NCBI GenBank assembly: GCA_019695335.1
Contig: JAIBAF010000011.1
Location: forward strand, 13,277 to 77,276
Reading direction: 5' to 3'
DNA from: a bacterium
Lineage (GTDB): Bacteria; CLD3; SB21
DNA: 64,000 nucleotides
This document shows positions 7,544 through 29,618 of the stretch, piece after piece. Positions within the stretch are counted from its first letter, which is position 1. Each line of letters starts with the position of its first letter. The position numbers were made by a program, and so were the translations under genes. The notes under the pieces are model-generated. The model worked only from the letters and a program-made list of their open reading frames with translations. It was not told the DNA's origin and did no database searches.

Positions 7544-7616
7544 AAATTGACTCCATGCAATTTTTTTGTATAGGCGCCCGCATTTTAAACTAGAGCGCCT
7601 ATATCAATTCAACTTC

Positions 7617-10947: not shown

Positions 10948-10985
10948 AAACTCCCGATGTTTTGCATCGGGAGTTAATAACCTAA
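10948..10985 (-). terminator. Rho-independent terminator downstream of the response-regulator gene
   Basis: CTCCCGATG ttttg CATCGGGAG with a T-run when read on the minus strand. Confidence 0.5.
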
Positions 10986-11003
10986 ACGGGTTATATGCTT
11001 GGT

Positions 11004-11621: not shown

Positions 11622-11646
11622 ATTTTTTTCCTGCTTGGTTTAGAAA

Positions 11647-14600: not shown

Positions 14601-14748
14601 TGCGATCCTGCAAAATACAACGCACCGTGCTTTGCGATAAACCGTCATCAATTCCAAGCCTTTGAAAATGAAAATTATGACGCTGAGCAATGACTGCTGA
14701 ATTCAGAACGAATAAAAGACAAAACGATGTGAATCGTAAATACGACAT
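11647..14748 (-). CDS. Sensor histidine kinase with a periplasmic two-component-regulator beta-propeller plus Y_Y_Y domain
   Basis: Repeated propeller motifs (WIGT/WVGT..GLNRFD) at least 12 times, a TM segment, a HisKA_3-like H-box (FHDEFGHKLT) and a HATPase_c (DDGTGFN...GQGLMSMHNRA). Confidence 0.8.
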   Translation of the reverse strand: MSYLRFTSFCLLFVLNSAVIAQRHNFHFQRLGIDDGLSQSTVRCILQDRKGFMWFGTANGLNRYDGYSLTIYKHNPMDSTSLSNDLISALYEDNDGVLWVGTNEGLNRFDVNHDNFTHYRHDPSDSTSINGNFVSSIAQDQYGILWIGTNIGLHSFDPKTGAFKRYFCDTDKARHLGPIRALLLDKSGYTWIATGNGLICLDRDKQQMARYEYNSGNLRGISGNSITALCEDNTGTIWIGTENAGLNRFDKDTGQFTRYFHDLKNYASLSSNNINSIIEDNFGILWIGTNNGLNRLDAKRQSFKHYLYSQADVRSLSHNTVLSIYEDRTGTLWIGTELGGLSNLNRFRDRFKHYKHDPTDPKSLTGNTVWSFCEDREGTLWVGTDEGLCQFDRSDESFKPLMKDDSGGLYLRIIEDNEGFLWAARPRSLDKIDPKSKRVISYRYNSNDPQSLSSDYVTSVYQDHQHVIWVGTSLGLNRFDRSTNTFKRYLFDPKDSTSLSGASVTTIFEDHAGTLWIGTRNGLNRFNRSQDDFKQFKRILHDPTSLSHNAVMNIYEDLNKQIWIGTYGGGLNRFNRETETFVRFTEEDGIPNNVIYGILDDNDGNLWLSTNNGLSKFNPITKSHKNYDIADGLQSNEFNQGAVYKTRASEMFFGGINGFNSFYPDEMKDNPYVPPIVITAFNKFDKRVKFNKPVSDMDVIELSYQDNFFSFEFVALDYTLPAKNQYVYKLEGFDEDWVHSGLRRYASYTNLSPGDYVFRVRGSNNDQVWNEVGASIAITITPPFWRTWWFYGLAVGLIVLLLVVSHEYRVRQRIAHMLELERVRVLESERIRKKAADDFHDEFGHKLTKIALLTEVMKKELKEATAESVESMNKIIDTSKTLSIGMRDFLWTLNPERDSLYDVAVRIKDFGDELFERTGVAFRVNGLNQDMAHLRLSMDWRRHLTLIFKEAMTNILKHAQCHNVQLEFKLNYSGIIVSLKDDGTGFNAHNGSAGQGLMSMHNRAQKINGFLDIQSGEHGTIVTFSGSLPTEFN

Positions 14749-14831: not shown

Positions 14832-17800
14832 TTATCGGGCAGCGATTTTCAGATGGCCACGCCCGAGCAACTTGTGTAATTGATAAATCAGGTCATGATT
14901 GGGAACGATGCGGAACTTTTTGATTTTGTAGTTGGCAACGGCATTTTTTTCAGGCAAATCGACACACAGTTGAATATCGCATGGATTTGTACCCGGATTA
15001 TTTACTTGTTGGCTTTTTTGAAGTGTTTGAATAATTGAATCCATCAGACCGTTGCCAAGCTGATGGAGTTGCACGTGAATGTAAATCTTACCGGTAAATC
15101 GTTCGAAAGCATCTTCAATTGGAAAAAGTTGATCGCATAAAATTCCTGGCACGTCGTTGCGGATAGAGATTTTACCGGTTACCATGACGACATTTTCTTT
15201 TTTAAGTAACGGCGCTATGTCTTTCATGACGCTTGCAAATACGACCACTTCGATCGTTCCGCCAAATCCTTCCAGTTTAACAAAGGCCATCGGATTGCCT
15301 TTTTTGTCGAAAATCTGACGGAGATCGGCGATCATACCGCCGACACGAATTTCTGAACCTTCACGTAAATCAATTTCTTCGCCGATCCTGATCATCGAGA
15401 ATGTATCAATTTCCGCGCGGTATTTATCCAACGGATGTCCCGACGCATAAAAACCTAATAATTCTTTTTCTTTGGCAAGCGCTTCCCCATGCGACCAGCG
15501 TGGAATTTCCGGCAACGGTATTGAAGTAAGTTGCTTTTTCTGCTCACCACTCACCGATCCGAAAATATCAACCTGATCGCTGTTGGCCGATTCTTGAGCA
15601 TTTGAACCAAACGATAAAGCTTTTTCGATAACATCGAAAAGCTGTGCCCGATGCCCCTGCAATGAATCGCATGCTCCGGACATTACAAGACTTTCCAGAA
15701 CTTTTTTGTTGACCAATCGCAGATCGGCATGTTCGCATAAATCAAAAATTGTTTTGAATTTCCCAAATTTTTCACGGGCAGATATGATCGATTCAATAGC
15801 CCCTAGCCCGACATTCTTGACGGCACCTAAACCGAATCGGATTGAATTATCTTTGACGTCGAATTCCGCTAAGCTTTCATTGACGTCGGGAGGTAAGACG
15901 TCGATGCCGATGTCACCGCAGGCATTGATCAAAACGGAAATACGGTCGGTATTCGCCATTTCGCTGGATAACACCGCCGCCATAAATTCCGCCGGATAAT
16001 GCGATTTCAGATAGGCCGTTTGATACGCCAACACCGAATACGCGGCCGAATGCGACTTATTAAACGCATAATTCGAAAAGGGAACCAAAATATCGAAAAT
16101 TTTCTCGGCCAATTCCTTTGTGTAGCTGTTGGCAACAGCGCCGTTGATCCAGTCGGGACGAACTTTATCCAATTCTTCGGGCTTCTTTTTCGCCATGATG
16201 CGCCGTACTACGTCGGCTTTGCCAAGAGAAAAACCGGCCAAAACTTGAGCCACTTGCATCACTTGCTCCTGGTACACGATGACGCCGTAAGTGTTTTTCA
16301 AGATCGGCTCAAGATTGACGTGAAAACAGTCGATCGGCTCTCGTCCATGTTTACGATTGATAAACGTTTTGATAAAATCCATCGGGCCAGGACGATATAG
16401 CGCATTCATCGCGATCAGATCTTCGATACTCGTAGGCTTGAGTTGTTTCATATATTCCGTCATGCCCTGCGATTCAAACTGGAATATGCCGACAGTTTCA
16501 CCGTTCCAGAAAAGATCGAATACTTTTTTGTCATCGAGCGGAATCGCATCCATATCAAGATTGATTCCGTAATTTTTCTGGATATGCCGCAACGTATCAT
16601 CAATAATAGTAAGTGTCGTTAACCCGAGAAAATCCATTTTCAACAGGCCGATTTTCTCGACCCAATCTTTATCAAATTGTGTTGCAATTTCGTCTTTGGC
16701 GGATTTATAGACCGGTACAAATTTTTTGATCGCATCGGGCGTAATGACGACTCCGGCGGCGTGAATACCGGGTTGTCTGACCAAACCTTCAAGCCGAAGG
16801 GCATTGCGGATAAGCTGGCTCATCTTTTCGTCATTACTCTTTTCCAGCGCTTTCATTTCGGGAACTTCATCCAGCGCTTGTTTGAGCGTGATCCCGAGTT
16901 TTCTGGGCACCATTTTGGCGATCCGATCGGCGTCGGACAATGCAATGTTCAGCGCTCGCGCCACGTCGCGTAATACACCGCGAGCGGCCATCGTGCCGAA
17001 CGTTATAATTTGTGCAACGTTGTCTTTACCGTATTTGTTAATGACGTATTCTATGACGCGCCCGCGATTGCGATCGTCAAAATCAATATCAATATCGGGC
17101 ATTGAAATACGTTCGGGATTCAAAAAACGCTCGAAAAGCAACTGATATTTGATCGGATCAACATTAGTAATGCCGATGGCATACGATACGAGGCTTCCTG
17201 CAGCAGAACCGCGGCCCGGGCCAACCGATACACCGATCTCTTTGGCCGAATTAATAAAATCCTGAACAATCAGAAAATATCCCGGAAAATCCATTTTAGT
17301 AATCATGTCCAATTCATATTGCAAACGCTTTCCGATATCCATCGAATAGTCCGGCATTTTCTTTTTCAAACCTTCGTATGCAAGATGGCGTAAATAGTCA
17401 TCCTGCGAAGCAAAACCTTCCGGTAATGTATACCGCGGTAATTGGGACTGACCGAACTCCATTTTAAATGAAATTTTTTCAGTCAAAGCGAGAGTATTGT
17501 CGATAGCGGAAGGAATATCTTTAAAAAGATTTTTCATCTCATCGGAAGTTCGGAAATAAAACGTATCGCCGGGATACTTAGGCCGCGTAACGTCATTAAT
17601 CGTTTTACCGGATTGAATGCACAACAAAACTTCATGCGCCGAAGCATCAGCGGCTTCCATGTAATGAATGTCGTTGGTCGCAATTAAAGGAATTCCCAAT
17701 TCTTCCGAAAGCCGGATCATCCCTTCATTCACTATTTGATCGGCTTTCAAACCGTGTCTCTGAATTTCCAGGTAAAAATCACCGCTGAAAATTTCGATAT

Positions 17801-18269
17801 ATTCTTTGGCAATCTTTTTTGCCTCATCGTAACGGCCATGCAGCAGCGCTTGCGGAATTTCGCCTTTCAAACACGCTGACGTTCCAATTAATCCTTTTGC
17901 ATATTGGCGAATACAATTTTTATCAATGCGCGGTTTGTAATAAAAGCCGTCCAGGTATCCCTGAGAAGCCAATACCATCAGATTGGAATATCCATTCTGA
18001 TCTTTAGCCAGCAATACGAGGTGATAAATCAGTTTACTTTTTTCAAGCCGGTTGGGTGCAAGATAAGCTTCCATGCCGATGATCGGCTTAATTTTGGCGC
18101 TCTTCGCTGCATTGAAAAACTCAGCCGCGCCGAATAGATTACCATAATCCGTCAAAGCCAGCGCCGGCATTTGATCTTTCGCGGCCGCTTCAATCAAATC
18201 ATCAATACGGCAGCAACTGTCCAGTAAGCTATAATGAGAATGATTATGGAGATGAACAAAATCAGGCAT
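14832..18269 (-). CDS. dnaE: DNA polymerase III alpha subunit
   Basis: PHP domain N-terminus MPDFVHLHNHSHYSLLDS, 1145 aa, conserved polymerase core motifs. Confidence 0.95.
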   Translation of the reverse strand: MPDFVHLHNHSHYSLLDSCCRIDDLIEAAAKDQMPALALTDYGNLFGAAEFFNAAKSAKIKPIIGMEAYLAPNRLEKSKLIYHLVLLAKDQNGYSNLMVLASQGYLDGFYYKPRIDKNCIRQYAKGLIGTSACLKGEIPQALLHGRYDEAKKIAKEYIEIFSGDFYLEIQRHGLKADQIVNEGMIRLSEELGIPLIATNDIHYMEAADASAHEVLLCIQSGKTINDVTRPKYPGDTFYFRTSDEMKNLFKDIPSAIDNTLALTEKISFKMEFGQSQLPRYTLPEGFASQDDYLRHLAYEGLKKKMPDYSMDIGKRLQYELDMITKMDFPGYFLIVQDFINSAKEIGVSVGPGRGSAAGSLVSYAIGITNVDPIKYQLLFERFLNPERISMPDIDIDFDDRNRGRVIEYVINKYGKDNVAQIITFGTMAARGVLRDVARALNIALSDADRIAKMVPRKLGITLKQALDEVPEMKALEKSNDEKMSQLIRNALRLEGLVRQPGIHAAGVVITPDAIKKFVPVYKSAKDEIATQFDKDWVEKIGLLKMDFLGLTTLTIIDDTLRHIQKNYGINLDMDAIPLDDKKVFDLFWNGETVGIFQFESQGMTEYMKQLKPTSIEDLIAMNALYRPGPMDFIKTFINRKHGREPIDCFHVNLEPILKNTYGVIVYQEQVMQVAQVLAGFSLGKADVVRRIMAKKKPEELDKVRPDWINGAVANSYTKELAEKIFDILVPFSNYAFNKSHSAAYSVLAYQTAYLKSHYPAEFMAAVLSSEMANTDRISVLINACGDIGIDVLPPDVNESLAEFDVKDNSIRFGLGAVKNVGLGAIESIISAREKFGKFKTIFDLCEHADLRLVNKKVLESLVMSGACDSLQGHRAQLFDVIEKALSFGSNAQESANSDQVDIFGSVSGEQKKQLTSIPLPEIPRWSHGEALAKEKELLGFYASGHPLDKYRAEIDTFSMIRIGEEIDLREGSEIRVGGMIADLRQIFDKKGNPMAFVKLEGFGGTIEVVVFASVMKDIAPLLKKENVVMVTGKISIRNDVPGILCDQLFPIEDAFERFTGKIYIHVQLHQLGNGLMDSIIQTLQKSQQVNNPGTNPCDIQLCVDLPEKNAVANYKIKKFRIVPNHDLIYQLHKLLGRGHLKIAAR

Positions 18270-18409
18270 GGATTTTCGTAAATTTAAATGAAAAGGTTTT
18301 GCATAATATAAAAACTATGTTAAAAAAGCAATTGTAGCGCGTAATTACAATAAAGATTCTAAGTTCGTAATATCCGGTTTGCATATCACCTTCCGTTAAC
18401 AAATAAGAA

Positions 18410-18452
18410 AACAAAAAAAGCCGTTTACGGGAATGTCCGTAAACGGCTTTGA
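18410..18452 (-). terminator. Rho-independent terminator after lipoprotein gene copy 1
   Basis: GCCGTTTACGG gaatgt CCGTAAACGGC with a T-run on the minus strand. Confidence 0.55.
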
Positions 18453-18472
18453 TAAATTAAAAATCGTTAAAA

Positions 18473-19078
18473 TCAGGATCGCCTCTTCCCAAATTGTGTT
18501 TTCAGACTCTCGATCTTCTGGGACAACGATGCCAACCCGGCCGGTGTCGCCACATTCGCATTAAATCCTGAATCCAGAATCTTTACTTCCGCCAAACTCT
18601 GTGTAAACTCTCCCAGCACAAAATGATTCGACGCTTTCAAAACCCGTAAGTCAGAAACATCCAATCCAAGACCATACGTAAACTCCCAATCCGAATCCAA
18701 CGCCAAAGCCACGCCGATCTCCGTGTTCGCCGCCGCATAACTCTTCCCCGCACTCAGCACAAACGCCCATCCGGCAAACAAATCAGCCGGTGCATTCGTT
18801 TTATCCGCCCCGTCACTGAACGCATTCGACGCGGCCGTGATATTGCTCAACTGAATGTAGCACCACCCTATTGCACTGTAGATTTCAGCCTTGTCAGGAT
18901 CCGCATCCCGAGCGTCTTCAAACGCTGCCAAGGCTTCCGTGTAATCTCCCGACGCGAACAACGTCTCGCCCTCGGTTATCAGTTTATCGTAATCCCCTTT
19001 ACCGGAACCGCCACCACACGAAAGCATTCCCAATGCTACCGTCATAGCCATTAATGTAAATATCTTCCTCGATCTCAT
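18473..19078 (-). CDS. Small TPR-like lipoprotein, copy 1
   Basis: Lipobox MLSCGGGSG and a helical TPR-like body. Essentially identical to 22497..23108. Confidence 0.6.
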   Translation of the reverse strand: MRSRKIFTLMAMTVALGMLSCGGGSGKGDYDKLITEGETLFASGDYTEALAAFEDARDADPDKAEIYSAIGWCYIQLSNITAASNAFSDGADKTNAPADLFAGWAFVLSAGKSYAAANTEIGVALALDSDWEFTYGLGLDVSDLRVLKASNHFVLGEFTQSLAEVKILDSGFNANVATPAGLASLSQKIESLKTQFGKRRS

Positions 19079-19995
19079 AATTCTACTCCTTATTTGATCA
19101 ACATCATTTTTTTCGTTTTGACAAACGCGCCGGCTTCGACGCGGTATAAATACACCCCGCTCGCCACCTGCTGGCCCAGTTCATTCTTCCCATCCCAGCT
19201 GATGCGGTAACTGCCGGCCAATTGAAATCCGCTATACAGCGTCTTCACGCGCTGACCCAATAAATTATATACCACTAACTTCAGAGTACCGTCCTGTGGA
19301 AGATCAAACGCGATCGTTGTGCTCGGGTTAAATGGATTCGGATAGTTTTGTTTCAATGTAAATTCTTTCGGCACAACATTATTACCGGTAAATGTAGCAT
19401 CGAGCCCGACCTTAAACTCTCCCAAAGTTTTGACTAAGGCCCGCACTTGATGCTTCTCCGCATACACTTGTGTACGCAAAGGCGTCCACGTATCACCGGT
19501 CTTCTGATAAATAAACACCTTCCCTTCATCTGCGAAATTACCTTGGGCATAGGTCATCGTGAGCACCAGTTCCTCGGCGTAGTCGCTCTCCGGACCGAAT
19601 TTCACAACCGTTTCACTTTCATCCGAGGCTGTCATATAGGTCTCGGTTTTAACCGAATGTTTGCTCATCTGCAAGGTCCCTTGACCGTTGGGGGTGGTGA
19701 CCGAGGCGATCTGTCCCGGCTTGGCCAGCGTGACGCCATAGGTTCTTGTCTGGATCGAATCTCTTCCACCGCTCGTAGTTGCCTTGATCCGGAAATTATA
19801 AGTTCCGCTGACTGAGAACACCGACGCACCACGGTATACTTTATTGGTACCGTTCACCTGAGCCATCGCGATCGATGTAGTATCGGTTAAACCGGTCACC
19901 CACATCTTGACCGTCGGCACGCCGCTGAACGCTGTGTCGGTCACGACCACCATGTCAAAATATTTCGACAACGCCGGATTCTGTAAAATCGACGT
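18485..19995. repeat. Direct repeat copy 1 (~1.5 kb, at least 99% identical to 22515..24025). It spans the lipoprotein gene plus the 3' ~900 nt of the BNR cargo gene.
   Basis: Pairwise comparison at a constant 4030-bp offset: identical for ~1350 bp, then five SNPs (19843, 19888, 19939-19941, 19974-19976) before the copies diverge. Confidence 0.85.
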
Positions 19996-22164
19996 ACCCA
20001 ACGGTGCGGGCGATGAATTTCCGAAATACTTCAACGACCTAGCTAATATTTTACCCATATTCGAATTTTCGAATAAGCGATAAATCTGAGCGCTTATAAA
20101 TACTCCTCGCGCGCCATGCCCTGTGTTATCAACATTTACTCCTCCGACATTAACGCTATCGGGATCATAATTAGGTCCGTAATAAAATGCTTTGTGTACG
20201 TTGCTGTTCAACAAGGTCAACTTATCACGTGTTGAGCCTCCTAACGCAATTGATGTCGTAATTCCATCACCTATTTTATTGGCGGTAAATCCTTTGAAAC
20301 TACTCGACGATGTATAGTTCCCGTTAAATCCGACTCCAAGTTTGTTTTGAAAAAGCGGATGCGATGAATGCAATTCTACTAAATCCGGTCCTGCAGCAAA
20401 TAAATGAACTCCACGGTCACATAGTAAGCTTAATGTATCGAGGAACGCCGTTGTTGTTGTTATTGCTGATGATGCAGACCATATAATAACTCGTCTTTTT
20501 GTTTTTTCAATGGCCTCGACAGGCAAACTTCGTCCCATAGTCACTAAATCCCAAAGATATGTGGTATAACCAGAATCTAATAAATGGCTTTGCATAAAAG
20601 TACCATAGAAAGCGATATCAACCATTACAAAAACGTCCGCCCGATCAATATTAAATTCATAATTAGAATTCAAAGATGGTTGTGCAATGGACTGCCTTAC
20701 ATAAGGCGCTTCGGAAATCACTACAATTGAATCATAAAAATTGAGTGATGAAAGATTTGTAAAAGTATTCCCGGATAGCGTATCCGCTGGAAATAGAGTA
20801 CCATTGCCATATCGACCGTACAATAAAACTGTAGAATTGACGTCATCCTGATAGACGTTGACCACGCTTACGCCAATGGAACCCATCGTTCCATTTAGTG
20901 ATAATTGGAAATTAACGTCAGTTGTACCACCTGCATTGACGTTGACATTTCCGATAACCTGATTAACACCAGCAGATTGAGCTTTAAGAGAATAAGTGCC
21001 GGGTGATAAATACATGGTGTACTTTCCGTCAGTATTATTGACGATACAACTGTCCGAACCTCCGACGACTACTACCGACGCATGCCCAACCGGCAAACCT
21101 CCGGAAGTCGTTGTAATCGTACCGGATATTTTGCCATAGCCGGAAGGATTGGTATTGAGTTTATATAAATTGGTGCCAAGCGCATCCTGATTGAGTGCAT
21201 AGACATCATGACTCGTAGCTGCTTTAATCATCCAGATGGCAGGATACGTAAATAGGTTTCCAAGTTGCTGCCAACTCTTTCCTTTATCAGCGCTTCTGTA
21301 AATACCTACTTCGAGGGACGTTCGGGAACCAAATACACCGATAAATAAATCCCCATTGACCGGATCCTGATCCAAACCCCACATGAAAATTCCATACAAT
21401 CCCATATCATTCCATGTCACGCCGCCGTCAGTACTTCGAAAGAATGAATAAGCAGCATCCAGTTGAATAGCCGCGTACACCATATTTGGCGTCGACTTAT
21501 CCCAAACGATTTTCGGGCATTCAGAGAAATAAGGATTCCCTCCTTTGACCAATGTCCAAGTCAAACCGTAATCTGTCGACCTGGCAATCTTAGTATCACC
21601 GGCACCTATGACGATTACGTTGGGATGAAAAGGATCAGCTGCAATGGTACAAACGTTACCATAAGGAACAACCGAACGCACGTGCCACGTACGGCCCGTA
21701 TCCGCGCTCAGCCAAAATTCACTCGTGTAAAAATCGACAAAATACATCGTGTCGGGATGAACAATATTATAGTCAAATGATTCACCGTCAGTCGAGCCTT
21801 CTTCTTTAACTTGTTCCCAATCAAATCCTCCATTTGTACTACGAAGAATACCATTATTTCCTACCATAACGATAATGGAAGTATCCAACGGACTCACGCG
21901 AATAGTACGAATGCCCGGACCTTGCGAAATGGATCCCCGTGTACTCCAGGTCGAACCCGCATCATAACTCACTTTGAATATTTTCTCCACGTTGTCGTGA
22001 ATGTACACGACATTATTATTAAGTGGACTCAACACAAATGCATAACCGTCGTGAACAGTCGGATACGTTTTCGTCCACGTCAGGTTTGTCTGTGAGTGTG
22101 CTGAAGTAGCAATGACTAGCATTTCTACAAAAAAAGTCCAAAACACCGTACGTAAAAAATTCAT
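19090..22164 (-). CDS. T9SS-sorted surface protein, paralog A: N-terminal BNR/Asp-box beta-propeller, CarboxypepD_reg-like domain, central domain of unknown function, and Por secretion tail
   Basis: Signal peptide. Six S-x-D-x-G-x-T/S-W Asp-box motifs (SYDAGSTWS, STNGGFDWE, SADTGRTWH, STDYGLTWT, STDGGVTWN, SADKGKSWQ). C-terminal KQNYPNPFNPSTTIAFDLP...VYLYRVEAG...KKMMLIK matches the T9SS CTD. Confidence 0.7.
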   Translation of the reverse strand: MNFLRTVFWTFFVEMLVIATSAHSQTNLTWTKTYPTVHDGYAFVLSPLNNNVVYIHDNVEKIFKVSYDAGSTWSTRGSISQGPGIRTIRVSPLDTSIIVMVGNNGILRSTNGGFDWEQVKEEGSTDGESFDYNIVHPDTMYFVDFYTSEFWLSADTGRTWHVRSVVPYGNVCTIAADPFHPNVIVIGAGDTKIARSTDYGLTWTLVKGGNPYFSECPKIVWDKSTPNMVYAAIQLDAAYSFFRSTDGGVTWNDMGLYGIFMWGLDQDPVNGDLFIGVFGSRTSLEVGIYRSADKGKSWQQLGNLFTYPAIWMIKAATSHDVYALNQDALGTNLYKLNTNPSGYGKISGTITTTSGGLPVGHASVVVVGGSDSCIVNNTDGKYTMYLSPGTYSLKAQSAGVNQVIGNVNVNAGGTTDVNFQLSLNGTMGSIGVSVVNVYQDDVNSTVLLYGRYGNGTLFPADTLSGNTFTNLSSLNFYDSIVVISEAPYVRQSIAQPSLNSNYEFNIDRADVFVMVDIAFYGTFMQSHLLDSGYTTYLWDLVTMGRSLPVEAIEKTKRRVIIWSASSAITTTTAFLDTLSLLCDRGVHLFAAGPDLVELHSSHPLFQNKLGVGFNGNYTSSSSFKGFTANKIGDGITTSIALGGSTRDKLTLLNSNVHKAFYYGPNYDPDSVNVGGVNVDNTGHGARGVFISAQIYRLFENSNMGKILARSLKYFGNSSPAPLGTSILQNPALSKYFDMVVVTDTAFSGVPTVKMWVTGLTDTTSIAMAQVNGTNKVYRGASVFSVSGTYNFRIKATTSGGRDSIQTRTYGVTLAKPGQIASVTTPNGQGTLQMSKHSVKTETYMTASDESETVVKFGPESDYAEELVLTMTYAQGNFADEGKVFIYQKTGDTWTPLRTQVYAEKHQVRALVKTLGEFKVGLDATFTGNNVVPKEFTLKQNYPNPFNPSTTIAFDLPQDGTLKLVVYNLLGQRVKTLYSGFQLAGSYRISWDGKNELGQQVASGVYLYRVEAGAFVKTKKMMLIK

Positions 22165-22439
22165 AACGTCCTCTTTTTATTTAATACTTTCCACTTTTTC
22201 CGGTCGTAACAGACATCAAATATTTCGCATTTACAACATTTTTAAAAACCTGACTGAATATATGTTCTATATAAGCTCCATCTTAGGATACGACAACTAC
22301 CTGATTGGATAGTATTGATATGAAAAGAAAGGAATCTTTTATCAAAACTACCCTTTCGGCTATTTCTGGATGAATTACAAAAAGATGTTTCGTAATGTAA
22401 AAACTTTAAAAAGCGATCCCGGTCATGGCTAATGGGAAA

Positions 22440-22476
22440 TAAAAAAACCCTTTGAAAATCCAATCTCAAAGGGTTC
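22440..22476 (-). terminator. Rho-independent terminator after lipoprotein gene copy 2
   Basis: CCCTTTGA...TCAAAGGG hairpin with a T-run on the minus strand. Confidence 0.5.
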
Positions 22477-22496
22477 GTAAAGTATTCTCTTGATTC

Positions 22497-23108
22497 TTAA
22501 TTCGGTAACTTGAGCTTCCCAAATTGTGTTTTCAGACTCTCGATCTTCTGGGACAACGATGCCAACCCGGCCGGTGTCGCCACATTCGCATTAAATCCTG
22601 AATCCAGAATCTTTACTTCCGCCAAACTCTGTGTAAACTCTCCCAGCACAAAATGATTCGACGCTTTCAAAACCCGTAAGTCAGAAACATCCAATCCAAG
22701 ACCATACGTAAACTCCCAATCCGAATCCAACGCCAAAGCCACGCCGATCTCCGTGTTCGCCGCCGCATAACTCTTCCCCGCACTCAGCACAAACGCCCAT
22801 CCGGCAAACAAATCAGCCGGTGCATTCGTTTTATCCGCCCCGTCACTGAACGCATTCGACGCGGCCGTGATATTGCTCAACTGAATGTAGCACCACCCTA
22901 TTGCACTGTAGATTTCAGCCTTGTCAGGATCCGCATCCCGAGCGTCTTCAAACGCTGCCAAGGCTTCCGTGTAATCTCCCGACGCGAACAACGTCTCGCC
23001 CTCGGTTATCAGTTTATCGTAATCCCCTTTACCGGAACCGCCACCACACGAAAGCATTCCCAATGCTACCGTCATAGCCATTAATGTAAATATCTTCCTC
23101 GATCTCAT
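22497..23108 (-). CDS. Small TPR-like lipoprotein, copy 2
   Basis: Identical to copy 1 except for the last few C-terminal residues. Confidence 0.6.
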   Translation of the reverse strand: MRSRKIFTLMAMTVALGMLSCGGGSGKGDYDKLITEGETLFASGDYTEALAAFEDARDADPDKAEIYSAIGWCYIQLSNITAASNAFSDGADKTNAPADLFAGWAFVLSAGKSYAAANTEIGVALALDSDWEFTYGLGLDVSDLRVLKASNHFVLGEFTQSLAEVKILDSGFNANVATPAGLASLSQKIESLKTQFGKLKLPN

Positions 23109-24025
23109 AATTCTACTCCTTATTTGATCAACATCATTTTTTTCGTTTTGACAAACGCGCCGGCTTCGACGCGGTATAAATACACCCCGCTCGCCACCTG
23201 CTGGCCCAGTTCATTCTTCCCATCCCAGCTGATGCGGTAACTGCCGGCCAATTGAAATCCGCTATACAGCGTCTTCACGCGCTGACCCAATAAATTATAT
23301 ACCACTAACTTCAGAGTACCGTCCTGTGGAAGATCAAACGCGATCGTTGTGCTCGGGTTAAATGGATTCGGATAGTTTTGTTTCAATGTAAATTCTTTCG
23401 GCACAACATTATTACCGGTAAATGTAGCATCGAGCCCGACCTTAAACTCTCCCAAAGTTTTGACTAAGGCCCGCACTTGATGCTTCTCCGCATACACTTG
23501 TGTACGCAAAGGCGTCCACGTATCACCGGTCTTCTGATAAATAAACACCTTCCCTTCATCTGCGAAATTACCTTGGGCATAGGTCATCGTGAGCACCAGT
23601 TCCTCGGCGTAGTCGCTCTCCGGACCGAATTTCACAACCGTTTCACTTTCATCCGAGGCTGTCATATAGGTCTCGGTTTTAACCGAATGTTTGCTCATCT
23701 GCAAGGTCCCTTGACCGTTGGGGGTGGTGACCGAGGCGATCTGTCCCGGCTTGGCCAGCGTGACGCCATAGGTTCTTGTCTGGATCGAATCTCTTCCACC
23801 GCTCGTAGTTGCCTTGATCCGGAAATTATAAGTTCCGCTGACTGAGAACACCGACGCACCACGATATACTTTATTGGTACCGTTCACCTGAGCCATCGCG
23901 ATCGATGTAGTATCGGTCAAACCGGTCACCCACATCTTGACCGTCGGCACGCCGCTGAGCACTGTGTCGGTCACGACCACCATGTCAAAATATTTCGACA
24001 ACGCCGGATTCTGCAGAATCGACGT
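22515..24025. repeat. Direct repeat copy 2 (partner of 18485..19995)
   Basis: Same alignment as copy 1, at a 4030-bp offset. Confidence 0.85.
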
Positions 24026-26526
24026 CGCAATATGCGGTGCGTATTGTTCGCCCAACGGAAGCGCAAATGTAGTACTGTTGGCTTCATTCGAATTGGCCGA
24101 TGTGCCGCTGGCATTCACAGCTTTGACTACATAATAATATGTCGTACTGGCTGTTAAATTCGAATCGGTTAATGTTGTTTCATTCGCTTCAACCGTATCG
24201 ATATTGGCGTAACCGCTGCCGCTCGTCAATGAACGGGAAATAATAAATCCCGTTTCATTATCAGCATTATCCGTCCAGCTCAGTTGGATCTTTGACGCCG
24301 AAATGGTTGTCGTCATTAGATTGGATGGCGCGATAGGCGCATTAAGTGAAAGTGTCCTTTTAAAGATTTTGCCTATAACAGATGACGCAACACCGGACAA
24401 ATCAAAACCCAACAACAAAGCCCAGCCGTTGCTGCCCGTATTGTCGACAAACGCTCCACCAATATTAACGGAGTCTCCAGCAACCGAACCATAATAAAAT
24501 GCTTTATGACCTGAAGCAGAAAGAAGGTTGATTTTGTCACGCGAAGTGGAACTGCTTGCCGAAAAATTAATCCCGTTCCCAATGGGGCTGCTTGTAAAAC
24601 CGTTGATGGCTGTACTATTGGTGTAATTTCCTGTAAATCCCAATTTCAATGTATTCTTAAAAAATGAATGTGCCGAATCCAATTCTACCAGATTTTGTCC
24701 GGCAACAATAATATCTATCCCCTCATTACAGAACATCGCCAAACTATCCAGGAACTCCTGAGGCATGGATGAAAGGTGCCTACGAGTCAACCACATTACT
24801 GTTTTGAGATTGGTTTTATTAATTGCGCTCAATGAAATAGAACGCCCGCGCTCATCAACGTTCCAATTAAATGACGAAAAACCCGAATCCGATAAAGGGG
24901 TTTGGTATGTTGGTGCGTACGTAGCTCCGCCAACACCAAAATTAGGATCAGGATCATTGATAATAAGAACGTCAGCGCGTTTAACATTTATCGTATAATC
25001 ATTATTAAGCGCAAGCGGTGATACAGAGGTCGTTATATAGGGAACCGTACTTGGAACAACAACAATAGAATCATAAAAATTTAGCGAAGAAAGATTGGTA
25101 AAGGCATTGCCCGAAAGCGTATCGACCGGAAATGGAGCGCCGTTACCATATCGGCCATACAATAACGCGATGTAATCCAGATCATCCTGGTAAATGTTAC
25201 TTACACTCACTCCAATAGACCCCAAAGTTCCGCTTAATGGTAATTGAAAATCGACTACCGTATTTCCTGTAGCAACAATATTCACACTTCCAATGATTTG
25301 ATTAACACCTGCCGATTGGGCTTTGAGGGAATACGTGCCGGGTGATAGATACATCGTGTATGTGCCATCAACATTATTGACGATACAGCTATCCGAACCT
25401 CCGACTACAACGATGGAAGCGTGCTCTACCGGTAATCCACCCGTAACCGTAGTGATGGTACCTGAAACTTTACCGTAACCGGAAGGATCCGTATTAAGTT
25501 TATAAAGATGAACATTACCAAATGCGTTAGGATCATCTGCATTCAAAGCATAAACGTCATGATTCGAAGCAGTTTTGATCATCCAAACATTTGGATAGCA
25601 AAAGTATTTCCAAGCTGCTGCCAGCTTTTACCTTTATCGGCGCTTCTAAAGATACCAAGATTGAATTCATGCTGTGCGCTTCCTGTTGAACCAAAAACGC
25701 CAATGAACAGATCCCCATTATCCGGATCCTGATCCAGCCCCCACATAAATATTCCATATAATCCCATATCGTTCCATGTCACACCGCCATCCGTACTTCG
25801 ATAAAACGAGAAATTGACATCTTGTTGAATAGCCGCGTATACCATATTCGGTGTGGACTTATCCCAGACAATTTTCGGACACTCCGAAAAATATTCATTA
25901 CCGGTTTTAACTAATGTCCAGGTTTCGCCATAATCGGTTGAACGGGCAATACGCGTGTCCCCTGATCCGACAACAATGACATTCGGATGAAACGGATCGG
26001 CCGCAATCGTACAGACGTTGCCATACGGTACGACCGAACGTACTTGCCACGTACGTCCTGTATCCGCACTGAGCCAAAATTCGCTTGTGTAAAAATCAAC
26101 AAAATACATCGTATCCGGATGAGCAAAATTATAATCAATCGATTCACCGTCAATCGAACCCTCCGGCTGAACATTATCCCAGTTATACCCGCCATTCGTG
26201 CTGCGAAGAATACCCGAATTACCAACCATCACGATGATGGACGTATCCAACGGACTCACGCGTATTGTACGAATACCCGGACCCGGTGTAATGGAACCGC
26301 GCTTACCCCACGTCACGCCGCCGTTATAACTTACTTTAAATGCTCCCTCTACGTTATCATGAATATAAACGACATTATTATTAACGGGGCTTATGACAAA
26401 GGCATAACCGTTATGGACAGTCGGATATGCTTGCGTCCACGTGAGGTTTGTCTGAGCTCGGGCTGATGCAACAAGCACCAGCGCGGCTACAATAAAGCAC
26501 CCAAACGTTGTTCGTAAAAAATTCAT
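23120..26526 (-). pseudogene. T9SS-sorted BNR-propeller surface protein, paralog B. Domain order is BNR propeller, CPD-reg-like, central domain, an extra FN3 domain, then the shared C-terminal module plus CTD. Split by a -1 frameshift into ORFs 25579..26526 and 23120..25582.
   Basis: The N-terminal 315-aa ORF ends ...SWQQLGNTFAIQMFG*. The -1 frame continues ...YPNVWMIKTASNHDVY, matching paralog A (...LGNLFTYPAIWMIKAATSHDVY). A one-nucleotide deletion relative to copy A is inferred near 25596-25600. Confidence 0.55.
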
Positions 26527-26538
26527 AACGTTCCTCCT

Positions 26539-28371
26539 TTATTTGATGAACAAAAGCTTTTTTGTTTGAACAGTCTTACCGGCTATCATCCTGTAAAAAT
26601 ACAGTCCGGACGCGACCGTCTGCCCTTTGGCATTTCTGCCATCCCACGTTACTGCGTATTGACCTGCGTCTTTTCTAGAATTTTCAAGCGTCCGGATCTC
26701 CTGTCCCATCGCATTATATATTTTTATCGTTACCGATTGATTATTGTCTGGAACATCGTATTTGATCCGTGTATCACCATTGAATGGGTTCGGATAATTC
26801 TGATACAAAGCATAGTTCTCCGGCTCACGTATCGATTCATCAAATTGAATCTGAAACACCGTATCAATCATCACATATTCCCGCATATCCCAACCTTTGA
26901 CATCCGCCCACGCCTTGAAAACAGCACGGTACACCAACTGGATATGAATATTCGCCTGAGAGTTCTTGCCTACCTTGAACACCATGCTGCTGGTATCTGT
27001 CTTTCCTGCCGGAATCCGGCTATCATAAATAATCTCGGTAGCAAACCAATTTGTCGTTGGCGAATCGCCGGTATCCTCATTGCGTGTAAATAACGTAAAT
27101 CCTTTTCCCGGAAGGCCGGAAAAATTACCTTCCGCAGGACTGCCCACACCGCCGTAAAACGGAATGGTGTCCCCATCGAGTTGTGTCAACATTTGACCGT
27201 TATTATCCGCTTTGACTACCAGGAACATATTTCTGAAACTCACTCCGGTCGGTAATTTGTGACCCGCGCCGACGTTGGTCACCAGCGCTTTGAGCGACAA
27301 TTGATTTTGCGTCAACGTCTTTTCCACGGCCAATCGTGCCGATCGATTCATAAATGCCGGCGTCGTCCCTTTAAAAAACTGGCTGTACACTCTGTTCGTA
27401 TCACGTACCACCGCATCCGCGGCCGCAATTCCACCGGCGAAAATCGAATCACTGTTGGGGCGCATGTGACAATCTTGGCATTGAATACCTTGGGCCGCAA
27501 ACGAACTCGCCGCCCATGAGTCGTACGTATCATCGACAATCACTCCGTAGCGGTTTGCATATTGATGGCAACCGGAACAAAACGCACTTTTTTCATAAAT
27601 CGGGTTATACGTACCGCCCATCCAGTCCGTGGTCACATCGTCAAATTGTCCATAATTAATATCACGTGCATGCGGCATAGGCCGTTTCACAAAAATCGAT
27701 CCGTTCACTCCGGTAGAATAATTCACGTCCACGCTGTCAATCTTATGGCAGAAATCGCAGAACACACCGGCCGTGTCGATGCTGTTGGAATTCCATACAT
27801 CGTTTAATTCCGTATTTCCCGGCGTACGCAGCGCAGCCGACGGTGCATGGCAATCGCCGCAATCACCGCCTTCATTCGGAAAATTCAATTTAAACCCGGG
27901 ATATACTCCCGTATTACCGTTGACGTCCGTGCCGTTGTAGATTTGTTTCAGCATCGAATTCGTGGCCGCCCGCGCATGTTTGGATTCACTCCATTGATTA
28001 AATAAACCACCGTGACAATTCCGGCAAAACGTCGGATTTTGAAAAACAAAATCAGCATTATCTTCTTCAGGCAATGGTTCCATTTTGATAGTATCGCTGG
28101 TACCGACTACGAACAACCGCCGTTTATTGAACCATCCGCGCTTACCGGCTGCAAGTGTTACAAACGAACCGATGGCTTTATCCGTAAAGAGTGTAAATTC
28201 ACCTTGAGCATTGGTCAAAACGAAATCATTGCTTCCGGGAAACCGAACACGCGCGTCCGGCACCGGCATCAAGTCTTCTGAACTCACTACGACTCCTGAT
28301 ACAGGCTGACCTGATTGTGTCAGTAACACAAAGGAACAAAAAAGAATTATTGACAATATGGCCTTAAGCAT
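26539..28371 (-). CDS. Pentaheme c-type cytochrome with an N-terminal CarboxypepD_reg-like domain and a T9SS C-terminal sorting domain
   Basis: Signal peptide. Five CxxCH motifs: CRNCH (aa 116-120), CGDCH (171-175), CDFCH (205-209), CSGCH (265-269), CQDCH (298-302). C-terminus YALYQNYPNPFNGDTRIKYDVP...GLYFYRMIAGKTVQTKKLLFIK matches the Por secretion tail. Confidence 0.8.
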   Translation of the reverse strand: MLKAILSIILFCSFVLLTQSGQPVSGVVVSSEDLMPVPDARVRFPGSNDFVLTNAQGEFTLFTDKAIGSFVTLAAGKRGWFNKRRLFVVGTSDTIKMEPLPEEDNADFVFQNPTFCRNCHGGLFNQWSESKHARAATNSMLKQIYNGTDVNGNTGVYPGFKLNFPNEGGDCGDCHAPSAALRTPGNTELNDVWNSNSIDTAGVFCDFCHKIDSVDVNYSTGVNGSIFVKRPMPHARDINYGQFDDVTTDWMGGTYNPIYEKSAFCSGCHQYANRYGVIVDDTYDSWAASSFAAQGIQCQDCHMRPNSDSIFAGGIAAADAVVRDTNRVYSQFFKGTTPAFMNRSARLAVEKTLTQNQLSLKALVTNVGAGHKLPTGVSFRNMFLVVKADNNGQMLTQLDGDTIPFYGGVGSPAEGNFSGLPGKGFTLFTRNEDTGDSPTTNWFATEIIYDSRIPAGKTDTSSMVFKVGKNSQANIHIQLVYRAVFKAWADVKGWDMREYVMIDTVFQIQFDESIREPENYALYQNYPNPFNGDTRIKYDVPDNNQSVTIKIYNAMGQEIRTLENSRKDAGQYAVTWDGRNAKGQTVASGLYFYRMIAGKTVQTKKLLFIK

Positions 28372-29098
28372 TATTAATAATTATTGACTTTAATTGTAAA
28401 AACCCGTGAAACTATAACACTTCTAACACTCAAACAACCTGCATCATAATGTGGTTCACCATTAAGCAGAACTATCCAAACGACACTAAAACAATCCGTT
28501 GGCTTTATCTATAAATATTAGCGCAAGGAACAAACAGACAAAAATACTACTATCAAGGCGATTCTAACCATGAAATTACCTAGCTAAATGGAACTGACAA
28601 ACTATGACGCAATAGAGGGTGCGGTCAATGTAAGGATCGAACATAGTAAGCGCAAGGGAATTTTAAGGCTGTTTTGTTTTGGCTAACCACTGACGAACCC
28701 TTGCATCCGATGGATTGAGGGTTAAGGCTTTCGATAGATAGTCTCTAGCTATTAAACGAATCTTACCAAGTCCAAAATAAGCGTCGTAAAGGTCGGATTA
28801 ATTTGAAAGCACTTGAAAACATGCTTCTTCAGCTTCACTAGGCCTTCGATTTCTCTAAAAACCGGATACGCTAAAAGGAGCTTCCCTCTACAATCGCGCG
28901 TGTGCTTGGTGCCATGGCCTGGACGGAGAAGGATTGACGGCAAAGGCGAATCGTTGGATATAAAACCTTCACAAACTCTGACCATCATCGAACAAATCCG
29001 GCAGGGCGGTTACCGTATGCCATTCTTTCAAACCGATATCATTTCAGACTAGGAACTGGCCGATATAGCCGCTTTACATTATTGCTTTACGAAGCCGC

Positions 29099-29545
29099 TC
29101 AAAGCAGCCGTGAGATGCTGAAGGTTGTTCCGGTTTGAGGAAAGTAAACAACACCGACAACGTCCATTGTCTGTCCGTTAAATGAAACCGTAGGTTTATC
29201 GATATTGGCCGTCACAAAATAAATGCAACGCGTCGACCAATAGCTCTTGCCATCCACCGTCACATCGGCAACATATTCCGCTTGTTCATTCCTCTTGTAG
29301 TTGTATACGACACTTTTACCAACCACATCCATGACGGTTTTGTCGTTTTTCTGAAAGAAAATGCGGATAGGAATGGACGATGTGAACGTCACGTCTTTGT
29401 AGAAACCTTCAGGAGCTTGGTTACTGCAACTGATGTCAATAGTATTACTGCCAAAAGTCAGCGTGTACCGTTGCTGCTGAGCCGAAATATTCGTGACAGC
29501 TAAAAAAGCCAACATAACAATCCCGATTCCACATTTCATAGGCAT
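29099..29545 (-). CDS. Small secreted hypothetical protein
   Basis: 148-aa ORF with a signal peptide (MPMKCGIGIVMLAFLAVTNISAQ). No recognisable domain. Confidence 0.45.
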   Translation of the reverse strand: MPMKCGIGIVMLAFLAVTNISAQQQRYTLTFGSNTIDISCSNQAPEGFYKDVTFTSSIPIRIFFQKNDKTVMDVVGKSVVYNYKRNEQAEYVADVTVDGKSYWSTRCIYFVTANIDKPTVSFNGQTMDVVGVVYFPQTGTTFSISRLL

Positions 29546-29618
29546 GGATCCTTTCTTAAAGTTTGTGAACCATCTGTAGTGTACAATTTTTGCTTTATAT
29601 TTTCAAATTAAAAATAAT

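What the first reader, a model, noticed from the sequence alone, without database searches (positions are those of the whole stretch)
18473..28371. Tandem T9SS cargo island: cytochrome, then two paralogous BNR-propeller surface proteins, each followed by a small TPR lipoprotein
Five consecutive minus-strand genes form two repeated units of a T9SS cargo gene, a lipoprotein and a terminator. The pentaheme cytochrome gene sits immediately upstream, 13 nt from the start of cargo B, with no terminator between them. Both cargo paralogs share three modules. The first is an N-terminal 6x Asp-box (BNR) propeller. The second is a CarboxypepD_reg-like domain, which also appears in the cytochrome and in both TonB receptors in this window. 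The third is a shared 300-aa C-terminal module ending in the CTD. Co-transcription of a secreted multiheme cytochrome with a propeller surface protein and a lipoprotein suggests a functional module. Candidate roles are a surface redox or substrate-binding complex with a lipoprotein partner or anchor. The composition has no described counterpart that I recognise.
Basis: partly seen in the sequence, partly recalled or inferred. Interest (0 to 1): 0.7.

Follow-up and report, generated by a model that had tools for sequence, protein, structure and literature searches.

The report
Secreted cytochrome–propeller pair plus lipoprotein cassette
An uncultured bacterium encodes a five-heme cytochrome, apparently exported to the cell surface, next to a conserved partner protein; the small lipoproteins nearby belong to a separate, previously undescribed add-on found on many unrelated secreted proteins.

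Summary
The genes are real, with corrections. Cargo B is split by a 1-nt deletion near 25597 into 315-aa and 820-aa ORFs. The "shared C-terminal module" is a 1349-bp block of 100% identical DNA, although the two paralogs are otherwise old (propeller 82% aa identity, synonymous sites saturated).

The island resolves into two separable conserved units.

1. A pentaheme cytochrome with a T9SS signal sits beside the propeller cargo. It belongs to the c552/ExtKL/MccSep family but lacks MccSep's catalytic Cys and Sec. The cargo has a six-Asp-box propeller, two beta-sandwiches and a GATase1-like domain with no conserved Cys/His triad. The pair is adjacent in 7 of 8 independent loci, in either gene order and with different flanks.

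2. A roughly 210-aa double beta-sandwich module directly precedes the CTD and is followed by a roughly 200-aa TPR lipoprotein. This pair occurs on unrelated cargoes (subtilase, FG-GAP, discoidin, giant adhesins). Every locus I could score fitted: 13/13 starting from the lipoprotein, 3/3 starting from the module. It is absent from the four cytochrome–cargo loci whose cargo lacks the module.

So the lipoprotein partners the pre-CTD module, not the cytochrome. A surface redox role is inferred, not shown. I found no paper linking T9SS and multiheme cytochromes.

The parts
26539..28371 (-). Pentaheme c-type cytochrome, 610 aa: signal peptide, CarboxypepD_reg-like N-domain, five-CXXCH domain, Ig-like domain with a GHKLPTGVSFRN motif, and a T9SS type A CTD
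   Evidence: A profile of the family matches PDB 5ZE8 (cytochrome c552) at E 5.6e-21 and 9WT8 (MccSep) at E 1.4e-6.
27466..28026 (-). Heme-binding region, from the first to the fifth CXXCH (aa 116-302). All 10 Cys of the mature protein lie in these motifs.
26542..26796 (-). T9SS type A C-terminal sorting domain of the cytochrome (aa 526-610)
   Evidence: PF18962, 35.2 bits against a cut-off of 27; TIGR04183, 41.4 bits against 23
26527..26538 (-). 12-nt spacer AGGAGGAACGTT (Shine-Dalgarno) between the cytochrome stop codon and the cargo B start codon
   Evidence: no convincing terminator here
23120..26526 (-). Cargo B, a paralog of cargo A, interrupted by a 1-nt deletion. It reads as 315-aa and 820-aa ORFs; repaired it would be 1135 aa.
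   Evidence: The database holds the 820-aa ORF as a separate NCBI protein (P0002).
25597..25598 (-). Frameshift site in cargo B: cargo A has TTTACGTATCC, cargo B has TTTGC-TATCC
24077..24331 (-). fn3 domain found only in cargo B, inserted just upstream of the pre-CTD module
   Evidence: PF00041, E 9.6e-8; 113 residues specific to cargo B across the A/B alignment
22497..23108 (-). TPR lipoprotein B (203 aa)
22445..22476 (-). Terminator-like hairpin after lipoprotein B (13 pairs plus a T run)
19090..22164 (-). Cargo A, intact, 1024 aa
21160..22092 (-). Six-Asp-box (BNR/Sortilin-type) beta-propeller of cargo A (aa 25-335)
   Evidence: PF15902, 53.7 bits against a cut-off of 33
20899..21129 (-). 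CarboxypepD_reg domain of cargo A (aa 346-422). A second beta-sandwich follows at 20650-20883.
20002..20649 (-). Central alpha/beta domain with a class I glutamine-amidotransferase-like (ThuA/GH42M-like) fold. No Cys or His is conserved across the family.
19360..20001 (-). Pre-CTD module ('Cmod', aa 722-935): a tandem beta-sandwich that always lies directly before the CTD
   Evidence: (pLDDT 96)
19093..19359 (-). T9SS type A CTD of cargo A (aa 936-1024)
   Evidence: TIGR04183, 37.4 bits against a cut-off of 23
18473..19078 (-). TPR lipoprotein A (201 aa), starting 11 nt after the cargo A stop codon
18417..18450 (-). Terminator-like hairpin after lipoprotein A (14 pairs plus a T run)
18485..19833 (.). 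Copy 1 of the 1349-bp exact repeat. It covers the lipoprotein gene except its last 4 codons, the CTD and most of Cmod, and stays near-identical to about 20000.
22515..23863 (.). Copy 2 of the 1349-bp exact repeat

Best explanation
The island holds two independent, conserved two-gene units joined together.

Unit 1 pairs a T9SS-exported pentaheme cytochrome with a T9SS-exported partner. The cytochrome belongs to the c552/ExtKL/MccSep ('PHC') family. The partner has a six-bladed Asp-box propeller, two beta-sandwiches and a GATase1-like domain with no conserved catalytic triad. Shown: homology, domain make-up, T9SS signals, and conserved adjacency in either gene order. Inferred: both proteins are placed on the cell surface and act together. 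The cytochrome would be an electron-transfer protein rather than an MccSep-type enzyme, and the propeller protein its binding or scaffold partner. Together they would exchange electrons with an insoluble or polymeric extracellular substrate. The direction and the substrate are unknown.

Unit 2 is a portable cassette: a roughly 210-aa tandem beta-sandwich module fused directly before a type A CTD, followed by a roughly 200-aa TPR lipoprotein gene. Shown: strict co-occurrence on unrelated cargo proteins. Inferred: the TPR lipoprotein binds the pre-CTD module and acts as a cargo-specific chaperone or surface anchor.

In this genome an old tandem duplication made two cargo-plus-cassette units. A recent gene conversion then made the two cassettes identical. 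Cargo B carries a very recent frameshift, or a sequencing error.
For: Cytochrome:
- It has five CXXCH motifs. A profile of 28 family members matches PDB 5ZE8 (T. tepidum c552) at E 5.6e-21 and 9WT8 (MccSep) at E 1.4e-6.
- The PHC family concept and its link to ExtKL, c552 and the archaeal nanowire AvECN come from PMC11976967.
- The CTD scores above the TIGR04183 and PF18962 cut-offs.
- About 28 close homologs (44-89% identity) are listed. Most are about 600-630 aa and score for a T9SS CTD, either Por_Secre_tail or the overlapping FlgD_ig model.

Cytochrome-cargo pairing:
- The two genes are adjacent in the window, L001, L002, L003/4 and L105/6 (cytochrome then cargo) and in L107 and L110 (cargo then cytochrome).
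- The gaps run from an overlap to 72 nt, and the flanking genes differ between loci, apart from L001 and L002, which share upstream genes.
- The window junction is 12 nt with AGGAGG.

Cassette:
- Of 20 metagenome loci retrieved with the lipoprotein alignment, all 13 with enough upstream sequence have Cmod plus CTD immediately upstream. None has a cytochrome or a propeller.
- Three Cmod proteins picked independently (P0248, P0270, P0289) all have a lipoprotein homolog immediately downstream.
- The N-terminal parts of these cargoes are unrelated: S8 subtilase, VWA/ASH, FG-GAP/ASPIC, discoidin and giant adhesins.
- Cmod ends a median of 90 aa before the protein C-terminus in 96 hits.
- Within the propeller-cargo family, Cmod and the lipoprotein are either both present (window A and B, L001, L002) or both absent (L003, L105, L107, L110), with no discordant case.
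- The exact repeat in the window covers just Cmod, CTD and lipoprotein.

Paralogs: synonymous sites are saturated (pS 0.71) and dN/dS is 0.05 in the propeller, so the duplication is old and both copies were constrained until very recently.
Against: - No function has been tested, and every organism involved is an uncultured MAG.
- No route is visible by which electrons would cross the outer membrane to a surface cytochrome. The window holds no other cytochrome and no porin-cytochrome genes.
- One close cytochrome homolog (L108/9) has no propeller cargo next to it.
- Only two non-motif His residues are invariant. A third (position 331, His in 75% of the family) is Gln here, so the heme ligation is unclear.
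- The propeller and the GATase-like domain give no clue to a ligand.
- Physical binding of the lipoprotein to Cmod rests on gene linkage and on the general peptide-binding nature of TPR proteins. I could not run a complex prediction.
- The sample of loci is small: 8 for the pair and about 22 for the cassette.
Confidence: 0.5

Rival explanations
1. One reading: cytochrome, propeller protein and lipoprotein form one three-part surface redox complex, with the lipoprotein as its anchor.
For: All three genes lie in one orientation with short gaps, and a terminator appears only after the lipoprotein. L001 and L002 keep the same three-gene order.
Against: Four independent cytochrome-cargo loci (L003, L105, L107, L110) have no lipoprotein gene. 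Homologs of the lipoprotein sit behind unrelated Cmod-bearing cargoes with no cytochrome nearby.
Confidence: 0.07
2. The propeller protein is a glycan-binding or glycan-active surface protein. The cytochrome either supplies electrons for oxidative polysaccharide breakdown or is only loosely related.
For: The closest sequence matches of the propeller in the PDB are BNR 'glycosyl hydrolase' 3b7f and a cellulase, 7kn8. The NCBIfam F510_1955 glycosylhydrolase model gives 76 bits. The GATase1-like fold recurs as an accessory domain in GH42, GH5 and GH164 enzymes and in a beta-1,2-glucosyltransferase from Ignavibacterium.
Against: All these matches are weak and driven by the Asp-box repeat: 76 bits against a cut-off of 175, and PDB E-values of 4e-5 or worse. 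No glycoside hydrolase catalytic domain is present, and no catalytic residues are identifiable. No carbohydrate-utilisation genes flank the module in the loci examined.
Confidence: 0.15
3. The cytochrome is a surface-located catalytic reductase of the MccSep type, acting on polysulfide, elemental sulfur or selenite, and the propeller protein binds the sulfur.
For: It is homologous to MccSep (9WT8, E 1.4e-6), which a preprint reports as the polysulfide reductase essential for S0 respiration in G. sulfurreducens. The GHxxPxG motif next to the MccSep active site is conserved.
Against: The active-site Sec325 aligns with Val (GHSIPDGU against GHKLPTGV). The heme-ligating Cys239 has no counterpart, because the mature protein has no Cys outside the five CXXCH motifs. 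MccSep is periplasmic and carries no CTD.
Confidence: 0.08
4. The adjacency of cytochrome and propeller cargo reflects general clustering of T9SS cargo genes, with no specific functional link.
For: Other T9SS cargo genes also cluster nearby in L003, L107 and L110. One cytochrome homolog stands alone.
Against: The same two families are neighbours in 7 of 8 loci, at 44-63% cytochrome identity. The flanks differ, the gene order is inverted in two loci, and the gaps are very short or overlapping.
Confidence: 0.1
5. The exact 1349-bp repeat and/or the frameshift are assembly or polishing artefacts rather than biology.
For: Exact identity within otherwise saturated paralogs is unusual. A single-base indel is a typical sequencing error. 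Both halves of cargo B show strong past constraint.
Against: The repeat ends at a domain boundary on one side and 4 codons before the lipoprotein stop on the other. Different gene ends and different terminators follow each copy, and the stretch just beyond the exact block has a few real mismatches. A strain chimera would not produce the distinct 332-nt region upstream of cargo A.
Confidence: 0.1

Closest known systems
Pentaheme cytochrome (PHC) family: Thermochromatium tepidum cytochrome c552 (PDB 5ZE8) and Geobacter ExtKL/MccSep (PDB 9WT8)
   Same: Five CXXCH motifs in the same order, followed by an Ig-like domain that contributes a GHxxPxG motif. The profile match runs over about 290 residues.
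   Different: The window protein adds an N-terminal CarboxypepD_reg-like domain and a C-terminal T9SS type A CTD, which predicts export across the outer membrane; MccSep is periplasmic. It lacks MccSep's Cys239 and Sec325. It scores 56.5 bits against the ExtKL NCBIfam cut-off of 250.
Outer-surface multiheme cytochromes of metal reducers (MtrC/OmcA of Shewanella, exported by the type II system; named from general knowledge)
   Same: A multiheme cytochrome predicted to be displayed outside the outer membrane by a dedicated secretion system. There are weak Pfam hits to MtrC/MtrF domains II/IV.
   Different: The fold family differs (five hemes of PHC type, not a decaheme). The predicted export route is T9SS. 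No porin-cytochrome conduit genes are adjacent. The dedicated neighbour is a propeller protein, not a beta-barrel or a periplasmic cytochrome.
T9SS type B CTD cargo with a cognate PorP/SprF-like partner encoded next to it (PMC9143113)
   Same: A cargo-specific accessory protein is encoded immediately beside the cargo gene, and the pairing depends on the C-terminal region of the cargo, not on its functional domains.
   Different: Here the CTD is type A (TIGR04183 passes; CHU_C scores below its cut-off). The partner is a roughly 200-aa TPR lipoprotein, not a beta-barrel. The covarying element is an extra roughly 210-aa module in front of the CTD.
ThuA-like / GATase1-like non-catalytic domains (PDB 2gk3, 1t0b, 3rht; GH42 middle domain)
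   Different: There is no detectable sequence similarity (no Pfam hit at E<=10). No Cys-His-Glu triad is conserved. The setting, a T9SS surface protein next to a cytochrome, is different.
ZU5 domains of ankyrin and UNC5 (PDB 6m3q, 3f59, 3ud1)
   Different: The resemblance is at fold level only, with 7-11% identity. Generic Ig-like, CBM56 and CopC sandwiches score nearly as well.

Membership tests
T9SS type A CTD cargo | C-terminal domain scoring above the curated cut-off of TIGR04183 / PF18962 | tested here: met
   TIGR04183 (cut-off 23): cytochrome 41.4 bits, cargo A 37.4, the 820-aa ORF of cargo B 37.8. PF18962 (cut-off 27): cytochrome 35.2, cargo A only 24.4.
T9SS type A CTD cargo | N-terminal Sec signal peptide | tested here: inconclusive
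   By eye only: hydrophobic N-termini MLKAILSIILFCSFVLLTQSG (cytochrome) and MNFLRTVFWTFFVEMLVIATSAHSQ (cargo A). No predictor was run. The 820-aa ORF of cargo B has no such N-terminus.
T9SS type A CTD cargo | T9SS machinery in the same genome, and actual secretion with CTD cleavage | not testable with these tools
   The only lead is a PorV-like outer-membrane protein at 3007-4032 (PF19572, 30.5 bits against a cut-off of 27). The rest of the genome was not available.
PHC pentaheme cytochromes (c552 / ExtKL / MccSep) | Five CXXCH motifs plus an Ig-like domain, with significant homology to solved members | tested here: met
   Five invariant CXXCH motifs. 5ZE8 matches at E 5.6e-21 and 9WT8 at E 1.4e-6 over profile positions 115-404.
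ExtKL equivalog (NCBIfam NF040886) | Score at or above the curated cut-off of 250 bits | tested here: not met
   56.5 bits.
MccSep-type polysulfide reductase | Heme-ligating Cys239 and catalytic Sec/Cys325 | tested here: not met
   Position 325 aligns with Val. The mature protein has no Cys outside the CXXCH motifs. The defining features are taken from bioRxiv 10.1101/2025.11.18.688581.
BNR/Asp-box (Sortilin-Vps10 type) beta-propeller | Pfam PF15902 above its cut-off, with repeated SxDxGxxW boxes | tested here: met
   53.7 bits (cargo A) and 59 bits (cargo B N-terminal ORF) against a cut-off of 33. Six Asp-boxes are visible in the translation.
BNR glycoside hydrolase (NCBIfam F510_1955 family) | Score at or above the curated cut-off of 175 bits | tested here: not met
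   76.2 bits. PDB sequence matches are E 3.6e-5 or weaker.
Class I glutamine amidotransferase | Flavodoxin-like GATase1 fold | tested here: met
Class I glutamine amidotransferase | Catalytic Cys-His-Glu triad | tested here: not met
   No Cys or His is invariant between aa 506 and 725 in the alignment of 9 family members.
Type B CTD cargo with a PorP/SprF partner | Type B CTD (CHU_C/TIGR04131 type) and an adjacent PorP/SprF beta-barrel | tested here: not met
   CHU_C scores 17.1 bits (cargo A) and 22 bits (cargo B) against a cut-off of 27. The adjacent gene encodes a TPR lipoprotein.

The most novel reading that the evidence does not exclude
Uncultured FCB-group bacteria use the type IX secretion system to put a PHC-family pentaheme cytochrome on or beyond the cell surface, together with a dedicated propeller partner. 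That would be a new terminal module for extracellular electron transfer. Because this family is related to the archaeal cytochrome nanowire AvECN (PMC11976967), it might even polymerise. Separately, the pre-CTD module and its TPR lipoprotein would be a new cargo-specific sorting or anchoring system for type A CTD cargo, analogous to the PorP partners of type B cargo.
Probability: 0.2. Interest if true: 0.8.

Novelty: new variant of a known kind. Interest (0 to 1): 0.6.

Why it matters
Bacteroidota and Ignavibacteria relatives are repeatedly suspected of extracellular electron transfer, and large sets of predicted secreted multiheme proteins have been reported for them (PMC11495043). No export route or partner proteins have been described. 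I found no paper that joins T9SS and multiheme cytochromes.

A conserved pair of a T9SS-signalled cytochrome and a propeller protein gives a concrete, testable candidate for such a route.

The second unit may matter more for secretion biology. Type A CTD cargo is thought to need only the general attachment complex. Here a subset of cargo carries an extra module strictly linked to its own TPR lipoprotein. This suggests a cargo-specific accessory layer that could be tested in any cultivable carrier.

The exact repeat also shows this cassette behaving as a recombination unit.

Tried and rejected
- Exact look-ups of the cytochrome and cargo A found no contig, so the window's own record could not be examined there.
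It returned almost only unrelated CTD proteins, so taxon names for true homologs were not obtained.
- The search for homologous proteins with Cmod alone returned nothing, not even cargo A's own entry, so it tells us nothing about Cmod's relatives. The exhaustive HMMER search replaced it.
- Pfam at E<=10 gave nothing for the central domain or for Cmod. An earlier call with a wrong frame failed.
- Rfam found nothing in 17500-30000, including the 727-nt non-coding stretch upstream of the cytochrome.
- The sigma-70 promoter scan found fewer sites than the shuffled controls and was not used. The weak hairpin at 26619-26601, inside the cytochrome coding region, was rejected as a terminator.
- The afdb50 fold library was unavailable. 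Foldseek against the PDB gave only generic tandem beta-sandwich matches for Cmod.
- L034, a distant 375-aa PHC homolog, had uninformative neighbours.
- Taxonomy could not be resolved beyond NCBI's '[bacterium]' (MBX7150851.1). There are no tRNA or rRNA genes in the window.

Full report
**What is in the sequence**

Six ORFs of 180 aa or more lie on the minus strand between 18473 and 28371:
- Lipoprotein A, 18473-19078, 201 aa.
- Cargo A, 19090-22164, 1024 aa.
- Lipoprotein B, 22497-23108, 203 aa.
- An 820-aa ORF, 23120-25582.
- A 315-aa ORF, 25579-26526.
- A 610-aa cytochrome, 26539-28371.

The 315-aa and 820-aa ORFs are the two halves of a paralog of cargo A. Aligning the DNA shows a single missing base in cargo B: cargo A has TTTACGTATCC and cargo B has TTTGC-TATCC, between 25598 and 25597. 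The database holds the 820-aa ORF as a separate NCBI protein (P0002). The downstream half has no signal peptide, so as written cargo B could not be exported.

Strong hairpin-plus-T-run sites follow each lipoprotein gene. None separates the cytochrome from cargo B. That junction is TAA-AGGAGGAACGTT-ATG, 12 nt.

The flanks are housekeeping genes: dnaE downstream, and a tRNA methyltransferase and guaA upstream. The window holds no other cytochrome or porin-cytochrome genes.

**Domain make-up**

Pfam and NCBIfam give the following:
- Cytochrome: five CXXCH motifs, weak cytochrome c554/c7/MtrC-type hits, a weak N-terminal CarboxypepD_reg hit, and a type A T9SS CTD above both curated cut-offs.
- Cargo A: a Sortilin/BNR propeller with six Asp-boxes, CarboxypepD_reg, and a type A CTD.
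- Cargo B: the same, plus an fn3 domain.
- Lipoproteins: TPR repeats behind a lipobox.

An alignment of cargo A with its eight database relatives sets the domain boundaries:

| Domain | Residues of cargo A |
|---|---|
| Propeller | 25-335 |
| CarboxypepD_reg | 346-422 |
| Second beta-sandwich | 428-505 |
| Central alpha/beta domain | 506-721 |
| Pre-CTD module ("Cmod"), absent from five relatives | 722-935 |
| CTD | 936-1024 |

**The repeat**

The segment 18485-19833 is identical, base for base, to 22515-23863 (1349 bp). Identity stays at 90-98% for about 150 bp more and then falls to background at about 20000. The block covers the lipoprotein gene except its last four codons, the CTD and nearly all of Cmod.

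Elsewhere the paralogs are old:

| Region | Amino-acid identity, A vs repaired B |
|---|---|
| Propeller | 82% |
| CarboxypepD_reg | 79% |
| Second beta-sandwich | 67% |
| GATase-like domain | 42% |

Synonymous sites are saturated (pS 0.71) and dN/dS is 0.05 in the propeller. This points to an old duplication with both copies under purifying selection. A recent gene conversion, or exchange of the 3' cassette, came later, and the frameshift is either very recent or an error.

A strain chimera is unlikely. Each copy is followed by a different gene end and a different terminator, and cargo A has its own 332-nt upstream region.

**The cytochrome**

By sequence the best solved relative is T. tepidum pentaheme cytochrome c552 (5ZE8, E 9e-8). 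A profile of 28 family members raises this to E 5.6e-21. It also finds MccSep (9WT8, E 1.4e-6).

MccSep is the product of G. sulfurreducens extKL. A 2025 preprint reports it as a periplasmic polysulfide reductase whose active site is heme 2, ligated by Cys239, together with Sec325. In the window protein Sec325 aligns with Val (GHSIPDGU against GHKLPTGV). The mature protein has no Cys outside the five CXXCH motifs. MccSep-type catalysis is therefore excluded.

c552, ExtKL and related proteins have been grouped as a pentaheme cytochrome (PHC) family, related to the archaeal nanowire cytochrome AvECN (PMC11976967).

Only His132 and His371 are invariant outside the heme motifs. A third position is His in 75% of relatives but Gln here. 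Met251 and Met303 are conserved. The heme ligation is therefore open.

About 28 close homologs (44-89% identity) are listed; most are about 600-630 aa and score for a T9SS CTD model. A wider set at 30-37% identity mostly lacks the CTD.

**Is the cytochrome linked to the propeller cargo?**

Starting from cargo homologs, all three loci fetched have the cytochrome gene immediately upstream (L001, L002, L003/L004).

Starting from cytochrome homologs:
- L105/6 has cytochrome then cargo.
- L107 and L110 have cargo then cytochrome, so the order is inverted.
- L108/9 has the cytochrome alone.

Counting the window, that is 7 of 8 independent loci. The gaps run from an overlap to 72 nt, and the flanking genes differ between loci, apart from L001 and L002. 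Adjacency that survives inversion of the gene order is good evidence of a functional link.

Two further pairs (P0005 with P0393, and P0009 with P0133) sit on contigs of equal length (9604 and 4816 nt) and are probably adjacent too. I could not check them.

**Is the lipoprotein part of that module?**

No.
- In the same searches, L003, L105, L107 and L110 have cargo without Cmod and no lipoprotein gene. The window (twice), L001 and L002 have both.
- L005 and L006 carry Cmod, CTD and the lipoprotein on proteins with other N-terminal parts, one of them FG-GAP/ASPIC.
- A metagenome scan with a lipoprotein alignment returned 20 loci. All 13 with enough upstream sequence have Cmod plus CTD directly upstream, and none has a cytochrome or propeller hit. 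The cargoes there include an S8 subtilase, a VWA/ASH protein and giant adhesin-like proteins.
- In the other direction, an exhaustive HMMER search with Cmod found 145 representatives (73 at E<=1e-10) in proteins of 149 to 3751 aa. Cmod ends a median of 90 residues (range 84-108) before the C-terminus, which places it directly in front of the CTD.
- Three of these proteins, chosen across the identity range, all have a lipoprotein homolog as the next gene, at E 1e-25 to 1e-39.

Cmod plus CTD plus lipoprotein is therefore a portable cassette. The exact repeat in the window coincides with it.

**Most likely mechanism**

Shown:
- Two conserved gene pairs, their domain make-up, and T9SS signals on the cytochrome and the cargo.
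- Absence of MccSep's catalytic residues and of a conserved GATase triad.

Inferred:
- The cytochrome and the propeller protein are exported by the T9SS and work together at the cell surface, with the cytochrome as the electron-transfer component and the propeller protein as a binding or scaffold partner.
- The TPR lipoprotein binds the pre-CTD module of its cognate cargo, as a chaperone or anchor.

The main weakness is that no route for electrons across the outer membrane is visible, and no ligand can be named.

**Comparison with what is known**

The cytochrome is a new architectural variant of the PHC family. The closest analogue of the cassette is the pairing of type B CTD cargo with adjacent PorP-like proteins (PMC9143113). 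Here, however, the CTD is type A and the partner is a lipoprotein.

Searches of the paper library for T9SS together with multiheme cytochromes found nothing. A survey of activated-sludge MAGs reports many predicted secreted multiheme proteins in Bacteroidota and does not mention the T9SS.

**Verdict**

The most interesting outcome is that the island splits into two conserved, undescribed gene pairs. Function remains inferred.

Noticed in passing
window 28372-29098: A 727-nt stretch upstream of the cytochrome has no ORF over 79 aa and no Rfam match. That is unusually long for this otherwise tightly packed window. It may hold the promoter or regulatory region of the cytochrome operon, or a decayed gene.
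   Followed up: partly
window 3007-14748: A run of minus-strand genes that looks like an uptake or sensing locus unrelated to the finding: a PorV-like outer-membrane protein (3007-4032), a 1146-aa protein with no Pfam hit (4103-7543), a TonB-dependent receptor with CarboxypepD_reg (7617-10658), a LuxR-type response regulator (11004-11621), and a Reg_prop/Y_Y_Y hybrid sensor kinase (11647-14748).
   Followed up: partly
window 19975-20001 (start of Cmod) and 19330-19359 (start of the CTD): Cmod begins with an invariant LQNP motif (Q and N invariant in 29 sequences). This resembles the QNYPNPFNP motif that opens the CTD itself. The first sandwich of Cmod might be an old, diverged copy of a CTD-like domain. 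The Por_Secre_tail model does not detect it.
   Followed up: partly
window 27379-27381 (cytochrome residue 331): Where 75% of aligned relatives have His, a likely distal heme ligand, the window cytochrome has Gln. One heme may therefore be ligated differently in this protein.
   Followed up: no
window 56960-61231: A 1423-aa plus-strand protein with five Lamin Tail Domain repeats and CARDB. L034 has a similar LTD protein that carries a T9SS CTD.
   Followed up: no
L003 5447-7870 and 12543-15122; L107 1976-4369; L110 8899-11040: In other genomes the cytochrome-cargo pair is flanked by further T9SS cargo genes of other families (Rax2/DUF5122 propeller, a second BNR protein, LVIVD with CarboxypepD_reg, VIT). 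The pair often sits inside larger clusters of surface-protein genes.
   Followed up: partly
L110 1969-4372: In the one large genome carrying the pair (a 4.7-Mb contig), cytochrome bd oxidase subunits I and II lie directly upstream of the cargo-cytochrome pair on the opposite strand. This is a single case.
   Followed up: no
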